Virus record (IMG/VR): IMGVR_UViG_2541047903_000005
Direction: 5' to 3' (one strand)
Length of the DNA stretch: 20,599 nt
From: a virus
Lineage: Duplodnaviria; Heunggongvirae; Uroviricota; Caudoviricetes
A model generated the notes under the pieces. It had not been told where the DNA came from. It saw only the letters and a list, made by a program, of their open reading frames with translations, and did no database searches. Shown piece by piece: positions 18,927-19,511 of the stretch (positions are counted from its first letter, which is position 1; each line of letters starts with the position of its first letter). A program made the translations under genes and the position numbers.

Positions 18927-19205
18927 GTGAGAGATTTCACGTTGCGTTTCAGTGATAAAGCAGATTTCAGGGCATTTCTCAGGAAACTTAACTGGGAAGA
19001 GGACGAAGAGCTGCAGAATGCCGTTCTGGTTGATGAGATTGGTTTTACGTTCAGTGAGTCAGGTGTTTCTGCTGACGGGGAGCCTGAATACACGCGAGAC
19101 GAAGGGTACTTTGTTAATATTCGTCTTCTTGACGATGGCTTTGATGAATCCGTGTTCCGTGAGTGGGTGGTTACACCAGAGCGCCCGCTCAGGGAGTGGT
19201 TTTAA
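18927..19205 (+). CDS. Hypothetical acidic 92-aa protein, start overlapping the tail-fibre stop
   Basis: GTG at 18927 overlaps the TGA of the tail fibre gene (GTGA); no internal ATG; acidic, non-repetitive composition with phage-like GC content; function unknown. Confidence 0.45.
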   Translation: MRDFTLRFSDKADFRAFLRKLNWEEDEELQNAVLVDEIGFTFSESGVSADGEPEYTRDEGYFVNIRLLDDGFDESVFREWVVTPERPLREWF

Positions 19206-19214
19206 GGGGAGCAG

Positions 19215-19511
19215 ATGGATATCACGCCGATACTTCATGCAATTTGTGCTGTGGCGGTACAGGGGCTGGTTGGGTGCATTACCGGTGACTGGGCTTATGG
19301 TGCAGCCATTGCCTGTACGTTTTTTGTTGCCCGCGAATATACCCAGGCAGAATATCGCTGGATTAAGCGTTTTGGTGATGGTCACCGACATAAGATGCCG
19401 TGGTGGGGCGGTTTTGATCCGCACGCGTGGGATGTGGCAAGCCTGATGGATTTTGTGGTGCCGGTGGTGGCCTGTGCGGGATTGTATGGCTGTATGCTGA
19501 TTTTTAGCTGA
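19215..19511 (+). CDS. Hypothetical 98-aa membrane protein with two predicted transmembrane helices
   Basis: ATG preceded by GGGGAG; hydrophobic N-terminal (ILHAICAVAVQGLVGCITGDWAYGAAIACTFFVA) and C-terminal (FVVPVVACAGLYGCMLIFS) segments separated by a W/H/R-rich loop. Confidence 0.55.
   Translation: MDITPILHAICAVAVQGLVGCITGDWAYGAAIACTFFVAREYTQAEYRWIKRFGDGHRHKMPWWGGFDPHAWDVASLMDFVVPVVACAGLYGCMLIFS

What the first reader, a model, noticed from the sequence alone, without database searches (positions are those of the whole stretch)
18927..19511. Two small uncharacterised genes after the tail fibre: acidic 92-aa protein and 98-aa two-helix membrane protein
Where lambda has tfa and the b-region, this phage has a 92-aa acidic protein whose GTG start overlaps the tail-fibre stop, then a 98-aa protein with two hydrophobic helices. 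The region after tail fibre genes is a known hotspot for prophage accessory cargo (superinfection exclusion, defence, anti-defence, fibre chaperones). I could not assign either to a family from memory, so they are the best candidates here for an undescribed function. Note the upstream fibre gene is inactivated by IS2, which may affect expression of the coupled 92-aa gene.
Basis: partly seen in the sequence, partly recalled or inferred. Interest (0 to 1): 0.6.

Follow-up and report, generated by a model that had tools for sequence, protein, structure and literature searches.

The report
Tail-fibre partner gene plus membrane gene
Both small genes are real and very common in E. coli prophages: the first is a conserved partner of one type of phage side tail fibre (also in purely lytic phages), and the second is a small inner-membrane protein that sits beside the fibre or spike genes of temperate enterobacterial phages. 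Neither has a tested function.

Summary
Both ORFs sit at the stated coordinates and are real genes. They are conserved under purifying selection and give confident AlphaFold models. Neither matches Pfam, NCBIfam, PADLOC or any solved structure. They fall in PHROG families 1361 and 1443, both labelled "unknown function".

orf92 (18927-19205) is not cargo. Homologues occur in 187 phage genomes, including lytic Drexlerviridae, T5-like, Nonagvirus, Dhillonvirus and rV5-like phages. In every locus examined the gene follows a lateral fibre gene, and in all but one its start overlaps the fibre stop codon. That fibre ends in the same lectin/LamG-type head as the fibre in this window. In many phages a second, distal fibre protein follows, with a conserved N-terminal peptide (M-x-T-x-T-x-I/V-P-x-D-I-x-x-L-K). 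I read orf92 as a fibre-module component, either an assembly factor or a joint.

orf98 (19215-19511) has three predicted helices, not two, and an invariant H/RE/QAE/W/P signature. The family has 439 clusters at 50% identity. In phages it lies beside fibre or tailspike genes of unrelated types. It is absent from the lytic coliphages that carry the fibre-orf92 module. In sphingomonads it is chromosomal. My best guess, with weak support, is a host-envelope or superinfection-exclusion accessory protein.

The finding is ordinary in sequence and uncharacterised in function.

The parts
15531..16670 (+). Side tail fibre gene, N-terminal part, up to the IS2 insertion. It has a lambda Stf-type attachment domain followed by an Ala/Ser/Thr-rich rod.
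   Evidence: Pfam phage_tail_N E 2.8e-68. Collinear with the intact 687-aa fibre WP_015674652.1 of E. coli CE10 up to window 16670.
16671..17999 (-). IS2 inserted in the fibre gene (1331 bp plus a 5-bp target duplication; the ends are placed to within a few bases). The transposase ORFs are on the minus strand.
   Evidence: BLASTN against CE10 leaves a 1336-bp insertion between window 16670 and 18000. IS2-type ORFs of 136 aa and 301 aa lie on the minus strand.
18000..18930 (+). Side tail fibre gene, C-terminal part. It has a GTA head-spike-fibre-like domain followed by a LamG/lectin-like head. This is the partner domain of orf92.
   Evidence: NCBIfam NF048003 GTA_spike_fiber E 2.6e-12. Pfam Laminin_G_3 E 0.0019, below the cut-off. 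phrog_1419 tail protein E 1e-127. It is 37-65% identical to the fibre C-termini of phages that carry an orf92 homologue, ending at the homologue's start, and is found in 205 phage records.
18927..19205 (+). orf92: a 92-aa acidic alpha/beta protein and partner of the fibre module (phrog_1361). Its GTG start overlaps the fibre stop codon.
   Evidence: AlphaFold2 pLDDT 86.3 with 5 strands and 3 helices. Homologues in 187 phage records and 345 protein clusters. It lies directly downstream of the fibre gene in every locus examined, with overlapping start in all but IME178.
19215..19511 (+). orf98: a 98-aa membrane protein with three predicted helices (phrog_1443). Family-wide conserved residues are H8, R40, E41, Q44, A45, E46, W72, D79 and P83.
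   Evidence: AlphaFold2 pLDDT 93.5. Alignments. 439 clusters among 1.84 billion representative proteins. Genomic contexts.
19517..19536 (-). Terminator-like hairpin followed by a T-run on the minus strand, just after the orf98 stop. It probably ends the convergent ykgJ-family gene (19629-19961, minus strand) and marks the end of the fibre operon.
   Evidence: Terminator scan and the sequence itself.

Best explanation
The two genes are unrelated in function and should be judged separately.

**orf92** is a dedicated component of one class of lateral tail fibre. In this class, a lambda-Stf-type or T5-type proximal fibre ends in a GTA-spike-fibre-like domain plus a LamG/lectin head. orf92 is translated together with the fibre (shown: overlapping stop and start codons). 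It acts on or at that head, either helping it fold and trimerise or staying bound as a small cap or joint (inferred). In many phages the next gene encodes a distal fibre protein whose first 15 or so residues are conserved even where the rest of the protein is unrelated. That pattern fits a conserved docking site made by the head and/or orf92 (inferred). This prophage and phage 21 carry the short version of the module, without a distal fibre. In this window IS2 has broken the fibre gene, so orf92 has lost its partner.

**orf98** is a separate, mobile small inner-membrane protein that travels beside receptor-binding-protein genes of temperate phages, whatever the fibre or spike type. It has three predicted helices. 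A strictly conserved polar cluster lies at one membrane face, most likely the cytoplasmic one (inferred from K+R counts). The most likely role is to act on the host envelope rather than on the virion. Examples would be a generic block to superinfection at the inner membrane, or a generic reduction of surface-glycan display. This last step is a guess by analogy, not a result.
For: **orf92**
- It matches phrog_1361 over its full length.
- There are 187 phage records with a homologue against 205 with the fibre head, and the taxon split is the same.
- In phage 21, tinuso, EC100, JenP1, HannyBb, KarlBarth, EmilHeitz and IrisVonRoten, the fibre head is 37-65% identical to the window's and ends at the start of the orf92 homologue. 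IME178 carries a diverged copy with a 46-nt gap after a fibre that has no detectable head match.
- Presence in lytic phages rules out a lysogeny-only role.
- dN/dS is 0.14-0.24 where it can be measured.
- The depositors of IrisVonRoten annotated the homologue as 'tail fiber protein'.
- In 8 of the 10 examined phage-record loci that have a gene after the small ORF, plus three further loci, that gene's product starts with M-x-T-x-T-x-[IVL]-P-x-D-I-x-x-L-K. This holds even though the rest of these proteins belongs to several unrelated families.
- orf92 is kept where no such distal protein follows: this window, CE10, phage 21, EmilHeitz, and 43 of the 80 closest IMG/VR loci. Its primary partner is therefore the upstream fibre.

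**orf98**
- It matches phrog_1443, and the AlphaFold2 model has pLDDT 93.5.
- The family has 439 clusters at 50% identity; the 150 best-scoring listed are all stand-alone proteins of 66-146 aa.
- H8, R40, E41, Q44, A45, E46, W72 and P83 are at least 96% conserved, and D79 is 81% conserved.
- In phages it sits after a LamG fibre plus orf92 and after an S74-type distal fibre.
- It also sits after or before Tail_spike_N tailspikes, between two tailspike genes, and after an SGNH-domain protein ahead of the lysis genes.
- It follows a P22-type tailspike and an OafA O-acetylase, next to the integrase.
- In phiHAP-1 it sits between the tail fibre assembly gene and the sheath gene.
- None of the 72 phage records with an orf98 homologue is a lytic Drexlerviridae, Tequintavirus or Vequintavirus, although those phages carry the same fibre-orf92 module. 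The fibre therefore does not need orf98.
- It is the last gene of the predicted prophage region in about 26 of the 80 closest IMG/VR loci.
Against: **orf92**
- No test here separates a transient chaperone from a virion component.
- Pairwise identities of orf92 do not track those of the fibre head or of the distal N-terminal peptide (Spearman 0.11 and 0.28, not significant, 8-12 taxa). There is thus no co-evolution signal for either partner.

**orf98**
- No sigma-70-like promoter was found between 18400 and 20200, against 3.5 expected by chance. The gene is packed against the late fibre operon. There is therefore no sign of expression in the lysogen, which a conversion or exclusion gene would normally need.
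- With the conserved loop on the cytoplasmic side (K+R 6.7 against 0.85), almost nothing would face the periplasm. The annotation of the phage 21 homologue predicts two TMDs with both termini inside, which would place the loop in the periplasm, so topology is unsettled.
- Homologues sit in plain chromosomal contexts: between ligA and prmA in at least one sphingomonad and after ligA in three, and near capsule-export or ast genes. They also occur in 235-237-kb Aeromonas phages. The basic activity is therefore not phage-specific.
- It is not in PADLOC.
Confidence: 0.55

Rival explanations
1. orf92 is purely a transient assembly chaperone for the LamG/lectin head, like lambda Tfa or T4 gp57A. It would be absent from the virion and have nothing to do with docking a distal fibre.
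For: It is encoded directly after the fibre gene and translationally coupled to it. It is retained in phages with no motif-bearing distal protein: this window, phage 21, EmilHeitz, and 43 of 80 IMG/VR loci. It is small and very acidic.
Against: It has no sequence or fold similarity to Caudo_TAP or other chaperone families. Wherever a protein with the conserved N-terminal peptide was found, an orf92 homologue lies between it and the proximal fibre gene.
Confidence: 0.35
2. orf98 is a late-acting helper of the receptor-binding proteins or of virion release, not a lysogeny function. For example, it might stop newly made glycan-binding fibres or spikes from being trapped on membrane-bound glycan intermediates, or it might tune lysis.
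For: It has no promoter of its own and is packed against late structural genes, often with overlapping or near-abutting codons. It lies between two tailspike genes in a Salmonella prophage and between an SGNH-domain gene and the holins in an E. coli prophage. It occurs in large Aeromonas phages. The conserved loop is probably cytoplasmic, which is where fibres fold.
Against: It is absent from the lytic coliphages that have the same fibre-orf92(-distal) module. It has chromosomal, non-phage homologues.
Confidence: 0.25
3. Both genes would be accessory cargo of the prophage (defence, anti-defence or exclusion) sitting in the post-fibre hotspot.
For: The position corresponds to lambda tfa and the b region. 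Downstream lie obvious cargo genes: a ykgJ-family gene and a VapA/VapB-family gene in a low-GC stretch.
Against: orf92 is found in lytic phages of at least five groups and always beside the same fibre head. Neither protein matches PADLOC.
Confidence: 0.1
4. One or both ORFs are chance open frames and not genes.
For: They are short, and orf92 starts with GTG.
Against: dN/dS is 0.14-0.29 with synonymous sites near saturation. There are hundreds of full-length homologues. The fold predictions are confident. Both have Shine-Dalgarno sequences.
Confidence: 0.01

Closest known systems
Tail fibre assembly proteins of the Caudo_TAP type (lambda Tfa, P2 gpG, Mu gpU)
   Same: They are encoded immediately downstream of the side or tail fibre gene. 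They act on the distal, receptor-binding end of the fibre, and some stay bound to the tip (my own knowledge of the family). orf92 has the same gene position, with translational coupling.
   Different: There is no profile match at E up to 1 and no fold match. orf92 is about half the size. It pairs with a LamG/lectin head rather than a Tfa-dependent tip. In many phages it lies between two fibre genes rather than at the end of the module.
Multi-protein or branched lateral fibres: T4 gp34-gp35-gp36-gp37 with its small hinge proteins, and LtfA/LtfB of the T5-like phage DT57C (PMC4728585, PMC10713586)
   Same: A proximal fibre carries a separately encoded distal fibre. The distal proteins after orf92 share a conserved N-terminal peptide, as expected of an attachment end. 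The BASEL authors model the IrisVonRoten distal fibre as attached to the proximal fibre with the 'galectin-like' head (PMC11990801).
   Different: DT57C LtfA and LtfB carry S74 intramolecular chaperone domains, and no small intervening gene is mentioned for them. DT57C LtfC is a different, 140-aa collar protein encoded upstream of ltfA. orf92 shows no homology to any of these proteins.
Exclusion or conversion genes next to receptor-binding-protein genes: T5 llp, cor of phi80/N15/T1-like phages, oac and gtrABC next to P22-, Sf6- or epsilon15-type tailspikes, D3 Iap, HK97 gp15 (my own knowledge)
   Same: These are small envelope proteins encoded beside the receptor-binding gene. orf98 lies beside fibre or spike genes in every phage context examined but one (Aeromonas phage 62AhydR11PP, where all neighbours are unannotated). 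Once it lies directly after an OafA O-acetylase, next to the integrase.
   Different: orf98 has no homology to any of them, and its lipobox-like LVGC is not conserved. Its sequence stays 50-76% identical while the neighbouring receptor-binding protein changes completely, so it cannot be receptor-specific. No promoter of its own was found. It has non-phage chromosomal homologues.

Membership tests
PHROG phrog_1361 (unknown function) | Full-length match to the family profile | tested here: met
   orf92 residues 1-92 match profile positions 1-92 of 92, E 2.5e-39.
PHROG phrog_1443 (unknown function) | Match to the family profile | tested here: met
   orf98 residues 1-91 match profile positions 1-91 of 97, E 4e-44.
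Caudo_TAP / Tfa-type tail fibre assembly proteins | Sequence-profile membership (Pfam Caudo_TAP and related families) | tested here: not met
   The Pfam scan of orf92 at E up to 1 gives only three chance hits (Nore1-SARAH, Herpes_UL42, DUF5734). NCBIfam gives none.
Caudo_TAP / Tfa-type tail fibre assembly proteins | Gene lies immediately downstream of the fibre gene it serves | tested here: met
   The start overlaps the fibre stop codon in the window and in eight of the nine phage loci examined. In IME178 it lies 46 nt downstream.
Caudo_TAP / Tfa-type tail fibre assembly proteins | Protein is needed for trimerisation or folding of the fibre tip, or binds it | not testable with these tools
   No multimer prediction or experiment was available. 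A mirror-tree test gave no signal.
Fibres with an intramolecular chaperone (Peptidase_S74) | S74 domain at the fibre C-terminus, which would make a separate chaperone unnecessary | tested here: not met
   The window fibre has no S74 hit. Its C-terminus is GTA_spike_fiber plus Laminin_G_3-like. S74 domains occur only in distal fibres of other loci.
Receptor-blocking lipoproteins (Cor, Llp) | Signal peptide with a conserved lipobox cysteine | tested here: not met
   The window orf98 has L18-V19-G20-C21. Across the family, position 21 is most often Leu (29%) and Cys is not conserved.
Holins | Profile membership, a charged C-terminal tail, and a place in the lysis cassette | tested here: not met
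   orf98 has no Pfam holin hit. It ends in the hydrophobic sequence MLIFS. It lies after the fibre genes. In one E. coli prophage it precedes two bona fide holin genes.
Known anti-phage defence systems (PADLOC-DB 2.0) | Match to any model | tested here: not met
   No families were found for orf92, orf98 or the two downstream ORFs at E up to 1.
Lysogenic-conversion or superinfection-exclusion 'morons' | Own promoter, or expression from the prophage | tested here: inconclusive
   No sigma-70 consensus site lies between 18400 and 20200, against 3.5 expected by chance. This is only a consensus scan, and no expression data were available.

The most novel reading that the evidence does not exclude
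orf98 would represent a widespread, undescribed class of small inner-membrane proteins. The family has 439 clusters at 50% identity across Gamma-, Beta- and Alphaproteobacteria and Desulfovibrio, and carries an invariant H / R-E-x-x-Q-A-E / W / P signature. Temperate phages would carry it beside glycan-targeting fibres and spikes to change the host envelope in a receptor-independent way. This could be a generic shutdown of undecaprenyl-linked glycan display, or a block to genome entry. In parallel, orf92 together with the lectin head would form a universal socket that accepts any distal fibre bearing the M-x-T-x-T-x-I/V-P-x-D-I-x-x-L-K plug. That socket would explain the mix-and-match lateral fibres of lambdoid, T1-like, T5-like and Queuovirinae phages.
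Probability: 0.2. Interest if true: 0.65.

Novelty: new variant of a known kind. Interest (0 to 1): 0.35.

Why it matters
If orf92 is the joint or assembly factor of the lectin-head lateral fibre, anyone grafting such fibres onto lambda, T5 or other chassis phages to retarget host range would need it. The conserved N-terminal plug of the distal proteins would then give a simple rule for swapping distal fibres. If orf98 changes the envelope or blocks superinfection, it would be a generic, receptor-independent function. Parts of this two-gene stretch match about a third of complete E. coli genomes, so it could affect phage susceptibility typing and phage therapy. As it stands, the finding shows that one of the two 'mystery cargo' genes is an ordinary fibre-module gene, and it gives the other a clear set of tests.

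Tried and rejected
- **Family libraries.** Pfam, NCBIfam and PADLOC scans of both proteins gave nothing. Pfam scans of ten distant orf98 homologues also gave nothing.
- **Fold and structure searches.**
  - Foldseek against BFVD for orf92 found only uncharacterised phage proteins.
  - The AFDB libraries were not available.
  - Profile searches against PDB sequences gave nothing for either protein. For the fibre head they gave only a weak hit to the RcGTA head spike fibre.
- **Literature.**
  - There were no hits for the RefSeq accessions, FIG names, PHROG numbers or 'ybl63'.
  - The DT57C papers describe a different fibre type, and LtfC is another protein.
  - The BASEL, RBPseg, tail-spike, BF23 and base-editing papers do not discuss the small gene.
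- **Mirror-tree test.** I compared orf92 against the fibre head, its last 70 residues and the distal N-terminal peptide. No correlation was significant, and the sample was small.
- **orf98 as a lipoprotein.** Rejected because the cysteine is not conserved.
- **orf98 as a holin.** Rejected on position, the C-terminus and the lack of profile hits.
- **orf98 as a partner of LamG fibres only.** Rejected because it neighbours unrelated fibre and spike types.
- **Domain fusions.** I looked for fusions that might hint at orf98 function. None appeared among the best 150 representatives.
- **Gene caller.** My first crude gene caller failed on GC-rich loci, so I replaced it with a strand-aware search.
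Full report
**Setting**

The window is the late end of a lambdoid E. coli prophage. The gene order is J (10912-14712), lom (14780-15379), a side tail fibre gene starting at 15531, the two small ORFs, and then a convergent ykgJ-family gene and a VapA/VapB-family gene. The same region without the insertion lies in E. coli CE10, next to a truncated ompW and the yciEFG and trp genes.

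Against CE10, the window carries a 1336-bp insertion at about 16671-17999. This is IS2 plus its 5-bp duplication, and it splits the 687-aa fibre gene.

**Observation**

orf92 (18927-19205) starts at a GTG that overlaps the fibre stop codon (GTGA), behind a GGGGAGG Shine-Dalgarno. orf98 (19215-19511) starts 10 nt after the orf92 stop, behind AAGGGGAG. orf92 is acidic: pI 4.25, with 23 D+E against 11 K+R.

Both are real genes:
- Against homologues from other phages, non-synonymous differences are 0.17-0.38 per site while synonymous sites are near saturation.
- dN/dS is 0.14-0.29 wherever it can be computed.
- AlphaFold2 models are confident, at pLDDT 86.3 for orf92 and 93.5 for orf98.

The only correction concerns helix count. 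orf98 is predicted to have three helices (4-23, 26-53, 74-97), not two.

The genes are very common. Parts of the 901-bp stretch match 1870 of 5426 complete E. coli genomes, with a median of two places per genome. PGAP annotates both proteins as hypothetical.

**Family assignment**

Neither protein matches Pfam, NCBIfam or PADLOC. Both match PHROG families labelled 'unknown function': phrog_1361 at E 2.5e-39 and phrog_1443 at E 4e-44.

Structure-based searches added nothing:
- There is no PDB sequence relative.
- The best hits for orf98 are generic helical bundles.
- BFVD returns only uncharacterised phage proteins.

Literature searches by accession, FIG name, PHROG number and topic found no description of either family.

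**orf92 belongs to the fibre, not to the cargo**

tblastn finds orf92 homologues in 187 phage records. These include the classical lambdoid phage 21 and many lambda-like phages. They also include lytic phages of several groups:
- Drexlerviridae (tinuso)
- Tequintavirus (EC100, IME178, IrisVonRoten)
- Nonagvirus (JenP1)
- Dhillonvirus (KarlBarth)
- Vequintavirus (EmilHeitz)

In every locus I opened, the homologue lies directly after a gene annotated as a lateral, side or tail fibre. In all but IME178 the start overlaps that gene's stop codon.

The last 300 or so residues of that fibre are homologous to the window's fibre C-terminus (37-65% identity) and end at the small gene. IME178 is the exception: its small gene is the most diverged copy, and its fibre has no detectable match to this head.

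The fibre head alone is found in 205 phage records, with the same taxon split as orf92. It carries an NCBIfam GTA head-spike-fibre domain and a weak Laminin_G_3 match. Others call it 'galectin-like' (PMC11990801) or a 'lectin-like head, D69' (PMC12143355). Neither paper assigns a role to the small downstream gene. The IrisVonRoten record labels the homologue 'tail fiber protein'.

A profile search with diverse members found 345 protein clusters. The 120 best-scoring listed are mostly about 92-93 aa and none has a Pfam domain.

**A three-part module**

In many phages a third gene follows orf92. The proteins it encodes range from about 98 to 715 aa and belong to several unrelated families. Some carry S74 intramolecular chaperone domains.

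In eight of the ten phage-record loci I compared, these proteins begin with the same peptide: M-[VA]-T-x-T-x-[IVL]-P-x-D-I-x-x-L-K. The eight are tinuso, EC100, JenP1, HannyBb, KarlBarth, IrisVonRoten and PhiR55_1, plus PhiR-like prophage loci. Three further genome loci also have it. The two exceptions are EmilHeitz and IME178.

A conserved N-terminal peptide on otherwise unrelated fibre proteins is what an attachment end looks like, so there must be a conserved socket for it. The candidates are the lectin head, orf92, or both.

The peptide is absent from this window, from CE10 and from phage 21, where orf98 follows orf92 directly. Among the 80 closest IMG/VR loci, 43 have fibre-orf92-orf98 and 37 have fibre-orf92-distal-orf98.

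orf92 is conserved where no distal protein exists, including in the lytic EmilHeitz. Its primary partner is therefore the upstream fibre.

I could not separate 'transient chaperone' from 'bound cap or joint'. That lack of signal fits free recombination between modules around conserved interfaces. The fibre's last 25 residues are themselves highly conserved.

**orf98 is a separate, mobile element**

Its homologues occur in 72 phage records. These are lambdoid and other temperate coliphages, a P22-like Lederbergvirus, the P2-like Halomonas phage phiHAP-1, and Aeromonas phages including genomes of 235-237 kb. None is a lytic Drexlerviridae, Tequintavirus or Vequintavirus, although those phages carry the fibre-orf92(-distal) module. 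The fibre therefore does not need orf98.

In phages, its neighbours are nearly always receptor-binding genes, but of unrelated kinds:
- a LamG fibre plus orf92 (window, phage 21)
- an S74-type distal fibre (HannyBb)
- a 227-aa distal protein (PhiR55_1)
- Tail_spike_N and pectate-lyase tailspikes, either before or after it
- two tailspike genes flanking it in a Salmonella prophage
- an SGNH-domain protein on one side and the holins on the other
- a tailspike and an OafA O-acetylase, next to the integrase
- a tail fibre assembly gene and the sheath gene in phiHAP-1; from my own knowledge, that is where P2 carries its Z/fun conversion gene

The one phage exception is Aeromonas phage 62AhydR11PP, where every neighbour is an unannotated hypothetical.

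The family is not only viral. A scan of one genome per species found 70 loci across Enterobacteriaceae, Aeromonas, Comamonas, Acidovorax, Halomonas, sphingomonads, Devosia and Desulfovibrio. In three sphingomonad loci the gene follows ligA, and in the one where I checked the other side it is followed by prmA. Other copies lie near capsule-export genes or ast genes.

An exhaustive profile search gave 439 clusters at 50% identity. The 150 best-scoring listed are all stand-alone proteins of 66-146 aa.

Across 112 representatives, H8, R40, E41, Q44, A45, E46, W72 and P83 are at least 96% conserved, and D79 is 81% conserved.

With three helices, K+R counts put the N-terminus and the conserved loop in the cytoplasm (6.7 against 0.85). 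The phage 21 record instead predicts two TMDs with both termini inside, so topology is open.

**How they most likely work**

*orf92.* What is shown: it is co-translated with the fibre, it is strictly linked to the lectin-type head, and it is present in lytic phages. What is inferred: it folds, caps or joins that head, and in three-part modules it may help dock the distal fibre. In this window IS2 has split the fibre gene, so orf92 is probably without a working partner. Whether it is still expressed is unknown.

*orf98.* What is shown: it is a conserved small membrane protein with an invariant polar signature, it is linked to receptor-binding genes of temperate phages regardless of their specificity, and the fibre module can do without it. 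What is inferred by analogy with llp, cor, oac/gtr, Iap and HK97 gp15: it has a receptor-independent effect on the host envelope or on genome entry.

Three points argue against this reading of orf98:
- No promoter was found.
- The loop is probably cytoplasmic.
- Chromosomal homologues exist.

A late helper role is a serious rival.

**Novelty and verdict**

The sequences are known and abundant, and the families are catalogued as PHROGs. Their functions have not been described in any source I could search.

orf92 looks like a new, non-homologous variant of a familiar kind of gene, the fibre accessory protein. orf98 is an uncharacterised family with a clear genomic signature. The original claim that these are 'the best candidates for undescribed cargo function' is half right.

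Interest is moderate to low. The finding holds no surprise for a specialist, but it gives two concrete and cheap hypotheses to test.

Noticed in passing
L003:4292, L004:4289, L006:3770, L007:3792, L009:3789, L013:4918, L015:1885, L016:5286, L083:5173, L084:3308: Distal fibre proteins encoded after orf92 homologues share an N-terminal peptide, M-[VA]-T-x-T-x-[IVL]-P-x-D-I-x-x-L-K, although the rest of these proteins belongs to several unrelated families. It looks like a universal docking plug. It is absent from the window, CE10 and phage 21.
   Followed up: partly
window 16671-17999: IS2 (1331 bp plus a 5-bp duplication) interrupts the side tail fibre gene, with its transposase genes on the opposite strand to the fibre. 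The listed 318-aa ORF 17974-18930 starts at a TTG inside the IS2 end. Fibre sequence resumes at about 18000.
   Followed up: yes
window 19629-20599: Beyond orf98 lie a convergent ykgJ-family Cys-cluster gene (19629-19961, minus strand), a 25% GC spacer (19962-20146) and a 39% GC gene annotated in RefSeq as a VapA/VapB family virulence-associated protein (20147 onward). In CE10 these are followed by a truncated ompW. They look like the real cargo at the prophage end.
   Followed up: no
L070:6010-6288, L078:5878-6225, L065:5899-6258: In three sphingomonad loci the orf98 homologue is a chromosomal gene directly after the NAD-dependent DNA ligase gene ligA. In L070 it is followed by prmA. No phage genes were seen among the neighbours tested.
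   Followed up: partly
L088:6001-6297 and L093:5001-5312: In a Salmonella prophage the orf98 homologue lies between two Tail_spike_N/pectate-lyase tailspike genes. In an E. coli prophage it lies between an 853-aa SGNH (GDSL) domain protein and two holin genes.
   Followed up: no
window 18400-20200: The consensus scan found no sigma-70-like promoter on either strand, against 3.5 expected from shuffles. A minus-strand terminator-like hairpin lies at 19536-19517, right after the orf98 stop.
   Followed up: no
window 19266-19277 (orf98 residues 18-21): The window's orf98 has a lipobox-like L-V-G-C, and the phage 21 record notes a SignalP signal sequence. The cysteine is not conserved in the family, where Leu is commonest, so the protein is probably not a lipoprotein.
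   Followed up: yes
phage records MG065666, MG065635, MG065655 ('Campylobacter phage') and OR848352, OR849447 ('Listeria phage'): Records labelled as Campylobacter or Listeria phages carry the same fibre head and orf92 homologue as coliphages (rV5-like in the Campylobacter records). The labels may reflect contamination or mislabelling rather than a true host.
   Followed up: no
P0014, P0016, P0018 (proteins): Some database 'homologues' of orf92 are frameshifted or fused gene calls that follow orf92 for about 50-60 residues and then diverge. They had to be removed before building the profile.
   Followed up: yes
window 15860-16260: The Ala/Ser/Thr-rich repeat region of the fibre rod creates long spurious ORFs of 94-102 aa in other frames and on the opposite strand.
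   Followed up: no
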